From Candidatus Hodarchaeota archaeon (lineage in GTDB: Archaea; Asgardarchaeota; Lokiarchaeia; Sigyniarchaeales; SOKP01), in assembly GCA_048886685.1 (NCBI GenBank), contig JBHLKM010000001.1, positions 288,001-352,000 of the forward strand: a DNA stretch of 64,000 bases, read 5' to 3'. This document shows, in pieces, positions 330 through 58,019 of the stretch. The position numbers were made by a program, and so were the translations under genes. The notes under the pieces are model-generated. The model saw nothing but the letters and a program-made list of their open reading frames with translations, made no database searches and was not told the DNA's origin. Every line of letters begins with the position of its first letter. The stretch's first letter is position 1.

Positions 330-561
330 AGTTCTATTTTACACTCTCAAAGTAATTTAAATATTGAAAATCTTCATTAAATAAAAAATTTTTAATCTGA
401 TTAACAGATTATTCGTATGATTTTCAAATATTTCTTGATAATTCAATTAAGAAATTAATACCAGCTCTCAATAATAAAAGATCCATAGAATTATTAAATT
501 GACTGCTTAGATTTGCGATAACTTAAAAAAAGTAAGATAAATAAGAATTTCTTAAAAAAAG

Positions 562-948
562 TTACATTTGGGAGATAATCTGTCTCATAATTTGCTCTCC
601 CGCGGCCCCAACCATCAATCCGTTCCGTACAAGCAACTGACCTTGAATCTCTATTGGGTGATTTAAGAGTTCACCGTTTTTGAAAAACAATAAGGTTGGA
701 ATGGCTGTTATACCAAACATCTCACCGAGAGGCCTATTCCTGTCCAAATCCTCTTTTAATAATTTGATAAGACCTTCACTTTTCAGTTTTTCTAATATTG
801 GACTTAAAAATTTGCAAGGGCCGCACCATTGCTGTTTGAGTGAGGAATTCACTCAAATTTCAGTGTAGACATCTACGATGACTTTGCCCTCTTTCATATC
901 GTCTGTAATTTCAAGTCCAAATTTTTTTAATTCTTCGATATTTATCAT
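562..948 (-). CDS. trxA: Thioredoxin, split by a predicted 30-nt intron: exon 1 948..859, exon 2 828..562, 118 aa after splicing
   Basis: ATG at 948 gives MINIEELKKFGLEITDDMKEGKVIVDVYTE, then I*VNSSLKQQ, then WCGPCKFLSPIL...GITAIPTLLFFKNG in the same frame. The WCGPC and cis-Pro (IPT) motifs are intact. The track ORF (562..852) lacks the strand that precedes the active site. Confidence 0.85.
829..858 (-). other. Predicted bulge-helix-bulge-type intron in the thioredoxin mRNA (30 nt)
   Basis: RNA reads ACUG-AA^A-UUUGAGUGA-AUUCC-UCACUCAAA-CAGC-AA^U-GG. It has a perfect 9-bp stem, a 4-nt central helix (3 pairs plus A.C) and two 3-nt bulges, and contains an in-frame UGA. Excision restores YTE|WCGPC. 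Confidence 0.75.
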
Positions 949-31202: not shown

Positions 31203-34200
31203 TTAGATCATTTCCTTATTAGTAAATTTAATATAGTTATTCTTTGGTTCATAAAGAGTTCCTTCTTTTATTAATTCTTCAAGAGCATTTTCAATGAATT
31301 TCTTGTCCAAATTTTCCTCTAGTTCAAGGATTTGAATAACATTATTTTTTTCCAGAGATCTCCAGTTATTTTCTTCAAATATTTCCTTTAGTCGGTTCAT
31401 TAAGGACTCAAGTCTATTCAAATTGCTTCTCGATTGTCCTACGAAAATTCTATCCATGTCTATTTTCCCAGAAGTCTCATCATATCCAGTATCTTTAAGA
31501 AATCTTTTGAATAACTTAATAACTTCTTCAACGTCTTCTTTATTTACGTTATCTCTTAGAGCCATTTTTGCATGTGCTTCACTTAGTCTTACCAGAGCAT
31601 CCAAATTTCTAGCTAAAATCGAAATAATCGCATCTTCACTATCATATTGATTTCTTAATTCCAAATAAAAGCTTTTTATTCGTTCTTTAGCTTCATCAGT
31701 AAGGACTGGATGACAGGTTCTTCGGGCATGTTTAATATACTTTTTAAGAAGCTCATTAGGAATAGGTGCTATACTCTCACCTATGTCTTCAAAATTTTCC
31801 TCCGGTTTAATCATTGAATTTCTTAAAATAAATTCTGCCATTTGGGCATCTTCTGAGGGATTGGGTCTATCTACAACAACAAAAATTAGATCAAAACGAG
31901 ATAAGAGGGATGGAGGTAAACGGATATTTTGAGTAGGCGTTTTATATCTATCATATCTTCCAGAATATGGATTAGCTGCTGCGATTATTGCTGTTTGAGC
32001 TTTCAAAGTAGCGACTATACCTGCTTTAGCTATACTTACAGTGTTATGTAGAATAATTCCTTGGCTAATAAATGTGTGATTTGGTTCAACTGTTATATCA
32101 TAAACCCATGGTGTATAATTCTTTCCCTTATTTTGAATACACTCAATTTTCTTAATTCTATCCCAACAAATATCTGACTCTAAGAAGGAAGTTAAATAGT
32201 TAATTTCTTCTTCAATTTCTTTCATTTTAGTTTTAAGAGAGGAAATGATCTCTAATCTAAATTTATCCCTCTGTTTTTTATTATATCCTCCTCTTTCATA
32301 ATAATCAATACTACTGCGATTAAGGCTAGCGATTTGAGCTAAAGTTTCCTGAGAATAGCCAGTTTTATTCCTAATTTCTTTAATATCAAGATTGTTATCA
32401 AGTATTTTTATTACTTCTAATAATTTATCTTTGATAAGATTTAGATCTTTTTGAAGAACATTGCGAGTGATTCCATGATTTTCTTTTAAATGTCGATGGA
32501 AATATCCATCATAAGTAATGGCTAAGTTATGTTTAAGATTAATAATCATTTCTGTTATTGAAGTTGGAAATATATCATGATGATGTGTTTTGGGTTTATC
32601 AGGCTTAATTAGATTTCTGATTTTTTTAATTCTATGATCATCATCTTGAACGATCTCTTCATAGAATTGAATTAATGACTGTGCACGAATATAGACTTTA
32701 TATGAATCATTATACTTATCATAAGTAATTCGGGAATGAATTCCTAATTTTAAGAGCGAATCTTGATAATCAACACATAAACCTTTAGAAGCAGTTCGAT
32801 AGCATATCGCTGTAGATTCTACACTTCCATCACCTTTAAAAGCACTAATCAAGAATTCCTTGATTATATTACGACTGCTTGATAATATTTTATTTGGTAT
32901 ACGTTTAAATTTTGATAATATTATAACTTCTGGAAAATTCTCTATCATCCATTCATATAAATTAATTGATGAATATCTTAGTGTTTTTAATCCATCATCC
33001 CTTTCATTTATAGAAGGTTCAATATTGAATATATCTTCCATCAATTCATAGAAATCTTTAAGTAAAACGTCATCCATATTTGAAAAGCCTATTTCTGATC
33101 CAGAGCCTCTATAACTATGGCCTTCACTAACTAAATATCCAATTATTCGACTTAATTTAGAATCTAAATATCTTGGAAGGGTTAATTTCTTAGCTAGAGG
33201 ATGATTTGATTTAATTATTTCATTTAATTCTATAATATCACTTGAATTTGGCAAATATTTCGGTATAGGGATGAAATCGTCTTTAACACAATCTTTTGCG
33301 TTGATACAGTTTAATTTACCTTCTCGAAACGCGAAAATTGGGTGTTCAGGTGTAACTATTATTGCTCTTCCATTAGTAAATGTAATCTTATAAAAATATT
33401 CAGGAGCTTTATGACGACTTACTCGATCTACATTAGTTTTAAATATTTTCTTGAAGTCAGTTGTGAAAAGCTTTAAATCATTAAAGCATAAAATTTCACA
33501 ATCTTTTCCTAATATTATTTTATCTTTATTTTGTTCCATTAACTTATTGATGAATTTTCCAATAACAATTCGTTTACCATTCACACTTAAGATTTCAGTG
33601 TTGTAATGGTAAGATTGCTGTTCCATCGCTTCGTGAAGTGCTGAGCGATCTGCTGTATCCATTTTGTCGAATTCGTCAATAGCCGCAACTCCTCCGTTGG
33701 CTAAAACTACAACACCAGCCTCAAGATTCATTTGTCCTGTATCACTCTCCTTTATTACAGCTGCTGTAAGGCCAACACCTGTTGAACCCTTACCAGAGGT
33801 ATATAATCCTCTTGGAGAAACTCCGACTGATCCTTTTAATATTTCACTATTATGGACGATGATATTACCATTCGCTATAATAAAGTGACCATCATCAGTT
33901 CCTATGTCATAAACCAATGTTTCTTCATTGATTACGTTAATTTCCTCAATTTTATCCCAGAAAATATCTGATTCAGTTAACTTTTTCAACCAGATTAGAT
34001 CGTTACTATACTCTTTATTTTTACATCTATATAGATTTTCGAATTTGGTTGTAATTTTTTTAAGATATAACCTACCAGCTCGTTGTCTTTGAGTTTTACC
34101 GCGAAGTTCTGCTAAAAAAGCTCGCTCATTAGAACCTCTTCTCGCTACAATTTCGAGATCATTTGAAATCCTCTGTAAGATATTACCAAAATTAGGTATA

Positions 34201-36512
34201 ATGTCCTTTTTTTGATATCTTGTTCTCGAACATGCAATATCTATAGCTATATCGAGGCGGTCTTGTTTTTCTGTTGATAAAAATCCTATTCTTTCATTGA
34301 ATTTGATTACTTCTTCTCCTGTTAGAATTATTTCATAATAGATATTTCCTTCATATTGTCCTGATTGAATGGTTTTAGTATTAATTGTACTAAAAATCCC
34401 AAAAGTACTTAACATATCTGATATTGAATATGCCAATAGTTTACTTGCCGTAGTGGCAGAAATAAATAGAGCTTCATTTTCAATATAACTATCTCCTGTA
34501 AAATAAGCAGAAAGTAAGTTACAACGAAAATCTGATGGAGCAGATAATAAAATACTAGGGAATTTTTTATTTTGAGCATGATTTCCAAATAAACTGTTAA
34601 ACCAATATCGTAGGCTAGCATTATGAATTTGGATAGAATCATCATAATCGTAATATAAAGCTCTACCAAAAATATCTATAAGATCGTTTTGAAGCACAGT
34701 TATTATTTCTTCATTAGTGTTTGAAATTCTTATACTATTTTGAGGTGTATCCCCTTCTGCGAGATAAAATCCAATAATTCTTCCAAGTTCTTCATTAAAT
34801 TTAATCATTCTTGGAACCCAAGTATTATCATATTTCCTCCTTATCCAATCTTCATCTGGTATTGAATCAAGATCTCTCAGATATGATAAAAATGTTCCTT
34901 CAGTAATATTTGAAATTCTAGCTGCACTACTAAGAGAAATTCCATCATTCAAATATAATTGAACCTGTTCACGTATTATTTTGGCGCTGACTAAATCCTC
35001 TTTATTAAAAAATACACTTATATCAATCCAATTACAATTATCTCCAAAATCTAAATTTCTCGCTATGGGTAGATATAAATTGTTACATTTTTCAAAAAGA
35101 TCATTACCATCAATTAATCTTAATTCACCATTTATTAATGTAGTAAATGAATGATTTGGAGTTGTAATAATAATACGCCCAGATTGTGTTTTAATCTGGA
35201 AAAGAATATTAGTCTTATGTCTGCTTACTTCATTAATTCTAGAGATTTGAGATTTTAGAGTATTTAGATTCATTGAATATGTATATATTGGATTATTATT
35301 TAATAATTTAAGGATTTCTGTATCTCCTTTTAAAATTACGTCAAAATGGTTTTTATCAAGAAGTCCATCTACAAATTCTCCTATTTTTTCAGTATTCCAC
35401 ATTGTTCCTGTTGATGTTTCGGTTCCAATATATATTTTTTCAGAACTATAAACACTTTTCCCAGTACCAGGATCACCTACCACAAGAAAATGAATATCTC
35501 CTCGTTTATAGCCACCACCTGGTTTTTGTCTTCTTGTTCCTCCAAAGAGACTCAAAGCGCATGCCATTTTTAATTGTTCCCGACCATATATACTGGGGCT
35601 AATTGATCGTGCAATTTTTTTTTGAATCATTGGTTCTTTTGATAAATCTTCAATTCTCTGTTTATCTTCTTTTGATAATTCTATAATATCTTCAATTTTA
35701 TCTTCGGGATCTATGAAGTTGACATCAACAAAAGTTTTGAATAACGTAGAATTGTAACTCTTTGTTGATTGAGCCAAAACAGATCTAAATACGCCCATTA
35801 CTTTTAATCTGTCTCCTGGTTTAACTGTATCAACTAAATTATGGGTTAAAATTGCTTGGACCGATCTTGGTATTCTCCCAGGTGGCAAATCTTCGGGGAT
35901 TTCCTGGATCATAATGCTTTGCCAATCAATAAATTCTGAATTTTTTGATATTAGTCTAAAATCTGATTGAGCTTTAGCTTTACAACGTTTATTAATACAA
36001 AAATTTGGCCACTTAATTCTTGAAGTTAGTTGAATAACTTCAAATTGACTCCCGCATAGTGCACATTCGAAAGTAGCTTTGACCAATTTAGGTCTAATGG
36101 TTGAACTTCTAACCAAAATTCCTTTTGACCAAACAAGATTATCGATATTTTTGGCTCTTAGACTTCTTAAAGATACAAATAAGGGTGATTTTTCATCTTT
36201 AGTTGTAATTCTTACAAAATAATCTTGATCACTTAATACTGTTCCCTGAAATTTTAAAATATTTTTAAATGCCTCTACAGCATCTTCTAACAAGGTTTCA
36301 GGATCCTTTTTGAGTTTCTCTGCAATTTGGGGGTCAAATGCTAATAAATCCTCATAAAAGATAATTAAAGTATTTCCTCCCTTTGAAAAAGTATCGTTAA
36401 TTTGGTCTAAATATTTATATTCCCCTGGTTTTTCTTGAAATAGGCGATAAAAATCTTCAAACTTCTGAATTTTGTTTACTGGTATTGTAGGGTTAGTAAG
36501 TGGGGTAGTCGT
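31203..36512 (-). CDS. mcm: MCM replicative helicase with two inteins; probable ACG start at 36512 (track start 36293); about 709 aa after protein splicing
   Basis: Zn finger, IQEIPEDLPPGRIPR, GDPGTGK|S, IDEFDKM, HEAMEQQ|TVSIAKAG and LLSRFDL. The frame stays open upstream of 36293 and encodes typical MCM N-domain sequence (FEDFYR...FYEDLLAFDPQIAEKLKKDPETLL). Confidence 0.96.
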   Translation of the reverse strand, partial: TTTPLTNPTIPVNKIQKFEDFYRLFQEKPGEYKYLDQINDTFSKGGNTLIIFYEDLLAFDPQIAEKLKKDPETLLEDAVEAFKNILKFQGTVLSDQDYFVRITTKDEKSPLFVSLRSLRAKNIDNLVWSKGILVRSSTIRPKLVKATFECALCGSQFEVIQLTSRIKWPNFCINKRCKAKAQSDFRLISKNSEFIDWQSIMIQEIPEDLPPGRIPRSVQAILTHNLVDTVKPGDRLKVMGVFRSVLAQSTKSYNSTLFKTFVDVNFIDPEDKIEDIIELSKEDKQRIEDLSKEPMIQKKIARSISPSIYGREQLKMACALSLFGGTRRQKPGGGYKRGDIHFLVVGDPGTGKSVYSSEKIYIGTETSTGTMWNTEKIGEFVDGLLDKNHFDVILKGDTEILKLLNNNPIYTYSMNLNTLKSQISRINEVSRHKTNILFQIKTQSGRIIITTPNHSFTTLINGELRLIDGNDLFEKCNNLYLPIARNLDFGDNCNWIDISVFFNKEDLVSAKIIREQVQLYLNDGISLSSAARISNITEGTFLSYLRDLDSIPDEDWIRRKYDNTWVPRMIKFNEELGRIIGFYLAEGDTPQNSIRISNTNEEIITVLQNDLIDIFGRALYYDYDDSIQIHNASLRYWFNSLFGNHAQNKKFPSILLSAPSDFRCNLLSAYFTGDSYIENEALFISATTASKLLAYSISDMLSTFGIFSTINTKTIQSGQYEGNIYYEIILTGEEVIKFNERIGFLSTEKQDRLDIAIDIACSRTRYQKKDIIPNFGNILQRISNDLEIVARRGSNERAFLAELRGKTQRQRAGRLYLKKITTKFENLYRCKNKEYSNDLIWLKKLTESDIFWDKIEEINVINEETLVYDIGTDDGHFIIANGNIIVHNSEILKGSVGVSPRGLYTSGKGSTGVGLTAAVIKESDTGQMNLEAGVVVLANGGVAAIDEFDKMDTADRSALHEAMEQQSYHYNTEILSVNGKRIVIGKFINKLMEQNKDKIILGKDCEILCFNDLKLFTTDFKKIFKTNVDRVSRHKAPEYFYKITFTNGRAIIVTPEHPIFAFREGKLNCINAKDCVKDDFIPIPKYLPNSSDIIELNEIIKSNHPLAKKLTLPRYLDSKLSRIIGYLVSEGHSYRGSGSEIGFSNMDDVLLKDFYELMEDIFNIEPSINERDDGLKTLRYSSINLYEWMIENFPEVIILSKFKRIPNKILSSSRNIIKEFLISAFKGDGSVESTAICYRTASKGLCVDYQDSLLKLGIHSRITYDKYNDSYKVYIRAQSLIQFYEEIVQDDDHRIKKIRNLIKPDKPKTHHHDIFPTSITEMIINLKHNLAITYDGYFHRHLKENHGITRNVLQKDLNLIKDKLLEVIKILDNNLDIKEIRNKTGYSQETLAQIASLNRSSIDYYERGGYNKKQRDKFRLEIISSLKTKMKEIEEEINYLTSFLESDICWDRIKKIECIQNKGKNYTPWVYDITVEPNHTFISQGIILHNTVSIAKAGIVATLKAQTAIIAAANPYSGRYDRYKTPTQNIRLPPSLLSRFDLIFVVVDRPNPSEDAQMAEFILRNSMIKPEENFEDIGESIAPIPNELLKKYIKHARRTCHPVLTDEAKERIKSFYLELRNQYDSEDAIISILARNLDALVRLSEAHAKMALRDNVNKEDVEEVIKLFKRFLKDTGYDETSGKIDMDRIFVGQSRSNLNRLESLMNRLKEIFEENNWRSLEKNNVIQILELEENLDKKFIENALEELIKEGTLYEPKNNYIKFTNKEMI
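32043..33614 (-). mobile_element. Intein 2 in MCM (524 aa, MEQQ|T site) with LAGLIDADG endonuclease and XRE-like HTH
   Basis: EQQ|SYHYNTE...VTPEHP...IGYLVSEG...FLISAFKGDGS...VYDITVEPNHTF...ILHN|TVSI. Confidence 0.93.
33849..35456 (-). mobile_element. Intein 1 in MCM (536 aa, Walker A site) with LAGLIDADG endonuclease
   Basis: GK|SVYSSE...TTPNHS...IGFYLAEGD...LSAYFTGDS...VYDI...IVHN|SEIL. Confidence 0.93.
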
Positions 36513-57917: not shown

Positions 57918-58019
57918 GGGCCTGTAGATCAGTGGAAGATCGCTTGATATCATTAAGCAAAACGCTTAATAACATGATTCGCATTCAAGAGGTCACGGGT
58001 TCAATTCCCGTCAGGTCCA
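57918..58019 (+). tRNA. tRNA-Ala(CGC) with a 30-nt intron at non-canonical position 32/33 (57949..57978)
   Basis: Acceptor GGGCCTG/CAGGTCC with G3:U70 and A73; T arm ACGGG-TTCAATT-CCCGT. Removing 30 nt gives the anticodon arm CTTGA-TTCGCAT-TCAAG and a 72-nt tRNA. CCA is not encoded. Confidence 0.92.

What the first reader, a model, noticed from the sequence alone, without database searches (positions are those of the whole stretch)
562..948. Candidate tRNA-type (bulge-helix-bulge) intron inside a thioredoxin mRNA
Seen: the minus-strand frame reads MINIEE...KVIVDVYTE-[I*VNSSLKQQ]-WCGPCKFL. Both flanks are intact thioredoxin, but 30 extra nt (829..858) with an in-frame UGA sit immediately before the active site. 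The RNA folds as ACUG-AAA-[UUUGAGUGA/AUUCC/UCACUCAAA]-CAGC-AAU: a perfect 9-bp stem, a 4-nt central helix (3 Watson-Crick pairs plus A.C) and two 3-nt bulges. Cutting after the 2nd nucleotide of each bulge, the established rule for archaeal splicing endonuclease (EndA), joins GAA to UGG and gives VDVYTEWCGPCK, the canonical thioredoxin spacing. The exon-side outer helix is weak, so the motif is a relaxed BHB. Established: BHB introns occur in archaeal tRNA and rRNA and in the cbf5 mRNA of some crenarchaea; I know of no thioredoxin example. Inference: thioredoxin synthesis would be gated by EndA/RtcB splicing, because unspliced mRNA stops after 31 codons. That would parallel IRE1/RtcB splicing of XBP1 in an archaeal relative of eukaryotes. 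RtcB-type ligases are oxidation-sensitive, so redox-linked control is plausible but speculative.
Basis: partly seen in the sequence, partly recalled or inferred. Interest (0 to 1): 0.93.

Follow-up and report, generated by a model that had tools for sequence, protein, structure and literature searches.

The report
tRNA-type mini-intron in Asgard thioredoxin gene
A 30-base hairpin with a stop codon interrupts the thioredoxin gene of an Asgard (Lokiarchaeota-type) archaeon, and comparison with many relatives indicates it is an intron cut out of the mRNA by the tRNA-splicing enzymes, a kind of coding-region intron that the papers I found confirm for only one archaeal gene (cbf5).

Summary
Confirmed. 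The 30-nt insert (829..858, in-frame UGA) is no artefact. It occurs at the same site in 6 of 52 genus genomes and in 41 protein clusters. In 16 distinct DNA versions the length is fixed, the loop is free, 97% of predicted pairs hold, and the ends fall on the EndA cut positions. Both exons are under purifying selection (pN/pS 0.18, 0.14); the insert is not protein-like (1.28). The tree gives one gain and at least three precise losses. New here: (1) four other genomes carry a different 25-nt frameshifting insert at a second site of the same gene, with a 4/4 central helix in the three examined; (2) six more such inserts in this genome, four of them frameshifting, restore conserved motifs or frames; (3) the genus-wide tRNA-Lys intron has the same 30-nt layout and 20/30 consensus identity, a possible donor. 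The genome encodes two-subunit EndA and RtcB. Splicing is inferred (~0.9), not seen in RNA. Redox gating is unsupported. This scan noted the same class earlier in other Lokiarchaeota genes and this intron in another genome.

The parts
859..948 (-). Thioredoxin exon 1 (30 codons, ends in the strand before the active site)
   Evidence: pN/pS 0.18 among carriers; the last three codons are invariant in 15/15 carriers
829..858 (-). 30-nt BHB-type intron (1 bulge nt + 9-nt arm + 5-nt loop + 9-nt arm + 4-nt central strand + 2 bulge nt)
   Evidence: 16 distinct versions, all 30 nt
562..828 (-). Thioredoxin exon 2 (starts with WCGPC; 88 codons plus stop)
   Evidence: pN/pS 0.14
861..864 (-). Exon strand of the central helix (ACUG)
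   Evidence: three pairs invariant in 16/16; the fourth position is A.G (14) or A.C (2)
858..860 (-). 5' bulge (AAA); predicted cut between 859 and 858
835..857 (-). Intron hairpin: 9-bp stem 857..849 with 843..835, loop 848..844
   Evidence: 95.8% of cells paired; one two-sided change, four pairs changed to wobble; loop hypervariable
853..855 (-). In-frame UGA inside the 5' arm; unspliced mRNA ends after 31 codons; followed directly by GUG (852..850), which gene callers use for a 96-aa product
831..834 (-). Intron strand of the central helix
828..830 (-). 3' bulge; predicted cut between 829 and 828
554..560 (-). T7 run just after the stop (terminator-like; no SECIS-like element follows)

Best explanation
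The insert is a real short intron of the archaeal bulge-helix-bulge class. In the pre-mRNA it folds into a 9-bp hairpin that stacks on a 3-pair central helix formed with exon 1, leaving two 3-nt bulges (shown as sequence potential and as conservation). The cell's two-subunit splicing endonuclease cuts after the second base of each bulge and RtcB joins the exons (inferred from the cbf5 and tRNA mechanism). This gives the normal 118-aa thioredoxin. Unspliced RNA ends at the UGA after 31 codons. The intron was gained once in one subclade of the genus and has since been lost precisely several times. It is most likely spliced constitutively, as one of several such mRNA introns in this genome, and is not a dedicated switch. 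Its likeliest source (about even odds) is the genus-wide tRNA-Lys intron.
For: Same 30-nt insert at the same site in 6 of 52 genus genomes, each time in the only close copy of the gene found, and in 41 of the top 120 protein clusters. 16 distinct DNAs: 97.1% of cells paired against 29-44% when slid; U-A to U-G to C-G series at one pair; loop free. Exons pN/pS 0.18 and 0.14, like intron-less orthologs (0.24, 0.18); insert 1.28. Synonymous exon sites in the motif are frozen in 15/15 carriers and variable in 40 non-carriers. Sister sequences L003, L018 and L136 have exactly the predicted junction. A second insert, 25 nt and frameshifting, sits at another site of the same gene with 4/4 central pairs, and BHB cuts restore the frame. 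Other inserts in this genome of 29-34 nt, four not a multiple of 3, restore conserved motifs or frames at BHB ends. Two EndA subunits and RtcB are present. The catalytic one aligns best with PDB 3P1Z/3AJV, including the N-terminal loop region. PMC5829648 reports that Asgard EndA is (alpha-beta)2 with the L1 loop linked to relaxed motifs. The genus's tRNA-Lys intron has only 2-3 central pairs in most genomes, so relaxed motifs are usual here.
Against: The motif is relaxed (3 of 4 central pairs, weak outer helix). A 2026 preprint warns that the relaxed class alone arises often by chance. Formal covariation is weak: one two-sided change, 63 of 500 shuffles as high. One stem pair is often mismatched (4 of 16). 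UGA is followed directly by an invariant GUG, which allows a reinitiation reading. A homology-free genome scan showed no excess of the BHB geometry over control geometries (noise-dominated, it missed inserts verified otherwise).
Confidence: 0.9

Rival explanations
1. Split gene: ribosomes stop at UGA and reinitiate at the adjacent GUG, giving a 31-aa and a 96-aa piece that reassemble; the hairpin couples the two.
For: UGA then GUG is invariant in 16/16 DNAs; gene callers annotate a 96-aa thioredoxin.
Against: GUG invariance is explained by stem pairing. It does not explain the frozen central-helix bases in exon 1 and the intron, the fixed 30-nt length, or losses exactly at EndA cut sites. The second-site insert has no start codon in the downstream frame. 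The 8 extra N-terminal codons change mostly at first and second positions.
Confidence: 0.04
2. UGA is read as selenocysteine (or read through), giving a 128-aa thioredoxin with a 10-residue insertion.
For: The genome has a tRNA-Sec and a VhuD-type selenoprotein; the insert keeps the frame.
Against: No lokiSECIS-like pattern downstream in any of 17 carriers, while the same pattern finds one after the VhuD-type gene. The UGA does not align with a cysteine. The insert evolves with pN/pS 1.28. The 128-aa records looked up are gene-caller products with TGA read as Trp (7 of 7, searches show six; the seventh carrier looked up is a 96-aa call). The second-site and four other inserts shift the frame.
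Confidence: 0.015
3. Ribosomal bypassing (as in T4 gene 60): the ribosome hops over the 30 nt.
For: A stop codon inside a hairpin right after the last coding codons resembles gene 60 (own knowledge); four carriers end the insert with the same Glu codon that precedes it.
Against: Matching take-off and landing codons are missing in most carriers, including this one. The central-helix complement is conserved instead, and the ends equal EndA cut sites.
Confidence: 0.02
4. Inactivating insertion (pseudogene) or assembly error.
For: The in-frame stop removes the active site if nothing repairs it.
Against: Found in many independent assemblies with about 20% exon divergence; strong purifying selection on both exons; no other lesion in any carrier; only close copy in carriers.
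Confidence: 0.005
5. Add-on to the best explanation: splicing is real and is regulated by redox state, gating thioredoxin.
For: The intron sits right before the catalytic motif, as in cbf5, where negative regulation was proposed (PMC2738675). The A of UGA never changes although its pairing partner does, which hints at selection to keep the stop; this is suggestive only.
Against: Absent in most of the genus, lost at least three times, and unrelated genes carry the same kind of insert.
Confidence: 0.12

Closest known systems
cbf5 pre-mRNA intron of Desulfurococcales and Sulfolobales (Watanabe 2002; Yokobori 2009, PMC2738675)
   Same: Short ORF-less intron (16-44 nt there, 30 nt here) inside a coding sequence next to the catalytic residue; BHB-like ends, often relaxed; heterotetrameric EndA; lineage-specific precise loss.
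   Different: Different phylum and gene; two independent sites in one gene family; several more such inserts in the same genome; recent gain within one genus; resemblance to a tRNA intron. Splicing is proven for cbf5 and only inferred here.
HVO_1309 5'-UTR BHB intron of Haloferax volcanii (PMC7714728)
   Same: EndA substrate in an mRNA.
   Different: Lies in the untranslated leader, so it does not break the reading frame; different EndA type.
Asgard tRNA introns (bioRxiv 10.64898/2026.10.13.758758)
   Same: Same lineage, same motif, repeated gains, frequent relaxed motifs; the tRNA-Lys intron of this genus has the same 30-nt layout.
   Different: That study covers tRNA genes only (no mention of mRNA) and found no general route of arrival, including copying between tRNAs.
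IRE1/RtcB splicing of XBP1/HAC1 (own knowledge)
   Same: Non-spliceosomal removal of a short hairpin intron from an mRNA, with RtcB-type ligation.
   Different: IRE1 cuts two stem-loops under stress control; here the ends are a BHB and no signal-dependent nuclease or regulation is shown.

Membership tests
Archaeal BHB (EndA-type) intron | Intron helix next to a central helix with two 3-nt bulges, ends after the second bulge base | tested here: met
   ends unambiguous and at the cut positions in 11 of 18 loci
Archaeal BHB (EndA-type) intron | Canonical motif: all four central pairs plus a flanking helix | tested here: not met
   3 of 4 pairs in all 16 versions: relaxed class only. The second-site insert does meet 4/4
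Archaeal BHB (EndA-type) intron | Host encodes an EndA able to cut relaxed motifs, and a ligase | tested here: met
   two EndA subunits and RtcB; Asgard type with L1 loop per PMC5829648; activity itself untested
Archaeal BHB (EndA-type) intron | Removed from the RNA in the cell; cut by EndA in vitro | not testable with these tools
   needs RNA reads or an assay
cbf5-type coding-region intron | Short, ORF-less, breaks the frame or protein; removal restores the conserved protein; exons under purifying selection | tested here: met
cbf5-type coding-region intron | Precise presence/absence among relatives | tested here: met
   one gain, at least three precise losses
Lokiarchaeota selenoprotein | UGA aligned to a conserved Cys and a lokiSECIS downstream (PMC4989117) | tested here: not met
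Programmed ribosomal bypass | Matching take-off and landing codons | tested here: not met
   absent in most carriers, including this one
Mobile element footprint / MITE | Other copies in the genome, target-site duplication | tested here: not met
   no second copy by blastn or by ungapped scan; ends slide 0-3 nt only
Transposed tRNA intron (Thermoproteales type) | Sequence shared with a tRNA intron beyond structure and composition | tested here: inconclusive
   20/30 consensus identity with the tRNA-Lys intron; P about 9e-4 and 3e-4 per comparison, but noticed after looking at about 16 introns, and no direction test

The most novel reading that the evidence does not exclude
Lokiarchaeia use tRNA-type (EndA/RtcB) splicing on many ordinary mRNAs, and these mini-introns move: the thioredoxin intron is a copy of the genus-wide tRNA-Lys intron that landed at a look-alike site (CUGAA) in an mRNA. 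This would be a traceable tRNA-to-mRNA intron transfer in close relatives of eukaryotes.
Probability: 0.45. Interest if true: 0.92.

Novelty: new variant of a known kind. Interest (0 to 1): 0.8.

Why it matters
The papers found list one coding-region BHB intron in archaea (cbf5) and one in a leader (PMC7714728). Here one small gene shows two independent gains, several precise losses and a candidate tRNA donor within a single genus, and the genome holds at least six more such inserts. If confirmed, Asgard genomes are systematically misannotated: dozens of database entries for this gene are 96-aa truncations or TGA=Trp read-throughs. mRNA splicing by the tRNA machinery would be routine in relatives of eukaryotes. 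The question of how BHB introns arrive, called the central open problem in a 2026 preprint, would get a concrete donor-recipient pair. A 60-nt transcript and the two EndA genes found here are enough for a direct test.

Tried and rejected
RNA evidence: the one run search returned 'no RNA holder listed', so no reads could be laid; this is no evidence either way. I looked for spliced/unspliced pairs among protein cluster members and found none with identical exons. A homology-free genome scan with control geometries showed no enrichment: 52 hits against 38-56 for controls. AT-rich hairpins swamp it and it missed verified inserts, so no genome-wide count is claimed. A paralog-based, motif-free scan gave 28 sites, mostly operon junctions, with four credible inserts. 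Rfam found nothing meaningful. No RVT_1 reverse transcriptase was found in this genome, so losses cannot be assigned to cDNA. L136 and L025 look like recombinants with other alleles, so gene conversion is enough. The uL11 lead from scan notes did not meet my strict geometry. A kink-turn (C/D box) reading of the 5' arm was considered and dropped, because the pairs needed are not conserved. The apparent extra conservation of the 5' arm is mostly explained by wobble rules. No structure prediction was run, since it could not separate the rivals.

Full report
Observation. The window's minus strand from 948 to 562 encodes a thioredoxin broken by 30 extra bases (829..858) with an in-frame UGA, just before WCGPC. 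The 9-bp stem is in the minimum-energy fold, although the region's z-score is only -1.27. The full geometry at these exact ends (3 central pairs plus 9/9 stem) arose in 0 of 200,000 shuffles of the insert. Relatives are annotated as Promethearchaeota/Lokiarchaeota, so this is an Asgard archaeon.

Conservation. A search of the whole genus found the same break in 6 of 52 genomes, each time in the only close copy of the gene. 41 of the top 120 protein clusters carry it, called either as 96-aa products from the GUG after the stop or as 128-aa products. All six 128-aa records whose DNA was fetched read TGA as Trp. 18 carrier loci gave 16 distinct inserts, all 30 nt. The loop varies freely. Three central pairs never vary, and the fourth is A.G or A.C. 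Stem changes are mostly to wobble pairs, and one pair runs U-A, U-G, C-G. 97.1% of cells pair, against 29-44% when partners are slid. The formal covariation test is not significant (63 of 500 shuffles), and one stem pair is broken in 4 of 16. In 11 of 18 loci the ends cannot slide and fall after the second base of each bulge.

Selection and history. Among carriers pN/pS is 0.18 in exon 1, 0.14 in exon 2 and 1.28 in the insert read in frame; intron-less orthologs give 0.24 and 0.18. So both exons make protein and the insert does not. The last three exon-1 codons are identical in 15 of 15 carriers, while the same Tyr and Thr codons vary in 40 non-carriers. All carriers fall in one well-supported branch (100/97). 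Four intron-less sequences are nested inside it, which needs at least three losses, and three of them show exactly the predicted junction. The tree is midpoint-rooted for drawing, but the carriers' branch lies inside the genus with many non-carrier branches around it, so one gain is the simplest reading. Two near-duplicates and three distant rows were left out.

A second intron in the same gene. Genomes G010, G028, G031 (second copy) and G072 have the gene split at another site, about 36 codons downstream. In the three examined, a 25-nt insert shifts the frame, has a 4/4 central helix, two AAA bulges and a variable loop, and cutting by the BHB rule restores the frame. A frameshifting insert with no downstream start codon cannot be explained by read-through or reinitiation. 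This is independent support for splicing.

More in this genome. A paralog-based scan that used no motif recovered the thioredoxin insert and found a 34-nt frameshifting insert in a gene with a 79-83% identical intact paralog (C18:88180; central 3/4, stem 9/9) and a 31-nt one at C5:86550. Following leads from scan notes I verified uvrB (29 nt, 4/4), an acetoacetate-CoA ligase-like gene (30 nt) and two inserts in phosphofructokinase (30 and 31 nt; the second has a weak stem), each restoring a conserved motif. My homology-free scan failed to show an excess over control geometries, so I give no genome-wide number.

Machinery. The genome has a catalytic and a structural EndA subunit and an intact RtcB. 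The catalytic subunit's best solved relatives are 3P1Z and 3AJV, aligned through the N-terminal loop region. PMC5829648 states that Asgard EndA is (alpha-beta)2 with the L1 loop tied to cutting relaxed motifs. The tRNA-Lys(UUU) intron, present in all 29 genus genomes parsed, has only 2-3 central pairs in most, so weaker motifs than this one are tolerated in this genus, at least in a tRNA context.

Possible origin. That tRNA-Lys intron is also 30 nt with the same 1+9+5+9+4+2 layout. Its consensus matches the thioredoxin intron consensus at 20 of 30 positions (best pair 22), against 9-15 for four other 30-nt introns of this genome. A structure-preserving null gives P about 9e-4. Among 16,842 genomic windows with this hairpin layout, 3e-4 reach the same stem-loop identity. 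The exon context is alike (CUGAA) in G000, G017, G003 and G024, which belong to the branch that gained the intron, and in G020, which does not. The match was noticed after looking at about 16 tRNA introns, this genome's own copy is less similar (12 of 23 in the stem-loop), and shared AT-rich features can converge. I put common origin at about even odds. The tRNA intron is genus-wide and the mRNA one is confined to a subclade, so tRNA to mRNA is the likelier direction (inference).

Rivals. Selenocysteine: no lokiSECIS-like pattern follows any of 17 carriers, while the pattern finds one after a VhuD-type selenoprotein gene of this genome, and the UGA aligns with no cysteine. Reinitiation at the GUG cannot be excluded for this site but does not explain the exon-side constraints or the second site. 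Bypassing lacks matched codons in most carriers. Pseudogene and artefact are excluded. Redox gating has no support beyond position. The A of the stop never changes while its partner does, which is only suggestive.

Comparison and verdict. This works like the crenarchaeal cbf5 intron (PMC2738675) and meets the features I could test, except the canonical four-pair helix. PMC7714728 lists cbf5 and one leader intron as the known mRNA cases. The recent Asgard intron preprint covers tRNAs only, and my four paper searches on archaeal introns found no report of Asgard mRNA introns (the library is incomplete). This scan's notes describe the same class in other Lokiarchaeota genes and this intron in another genome; they are not counted as evidence. 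Shown: sequence, conservation, selection, gain and loss, machinery genes. Inferred: cutting, ligation, constitutive use, origin. Confidence in splicing 0.9; interest 0.8.

Noticed in passing
L031:1100-1160, L032, L033 (G010, G028, G031; also G072): Second, independent 25-nt frameshifting BHB insert in the same thioredoxin family, with a 4/4 central helix.
   Followed up: yes
L139:141-247 (G000 C15:47740-47845) and L140-L169: tRNA-Lys(UUU) intron in the variable region, 30 nt in 29/29 genus genomes parsed, same layout as the thioredoxin intron and 20/30 consensus identity; central helix often only 2-3 pairs.
   Followed up: yes
G000 C18:88180 (+), C5:86550 (+), C3:215413 (+), C40:3422 (+), C16:51445 and 51761 (-): Further 29-34-nt BHB-like inserts in coding genes: a probable CO dehydrogenase/ACDS alpha subunit, a hexapeptide-repeat-like protein, uvrB, an acetoacetate-CoA ligase-like gene and phosphofructokinase (two).
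   Followed up: partly
window 57918-58019 (+): tRNA-Ala(CGC) with a 30-nt intron near position 31-32 and a relaxed central helix (3/4).
   Followed up: partly
G000 C8:16466-16780 (+); L045, L046: A thioredoxin paralog has TGA in place of the Trp before its CxxC-like motif; related copies in G012 and G014 have stops at other places, so it looks like a decaying paralog.
   Followed up: partly
G000 C2:241160-241665 (+): VhuD/MvhD-type gene with an in-frame TGA at a Cys-like position and a lokiSECIS-like hairpin right after the stop; used as positive control.
   Followed up: partly
window 32652-32864 and 34284-34529 (-): Two LAGLIDADG_3 matches inside one 1771-aa open frame, probably intein(s).
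   Followed up: no
L136:490-575 against window 562-650: The 3' end of an intron-less relative is almost identical to this gene while the rest differs by about 20%, which suggests recombination between alleles in this genus.
   Followed up: no
G000 C1:204855-204900 (+): uL11 gene is broken by a frameshift-sized gap; my strict BHB scoring did not recover a clean motif at the expected ends.
   Followed up: partly
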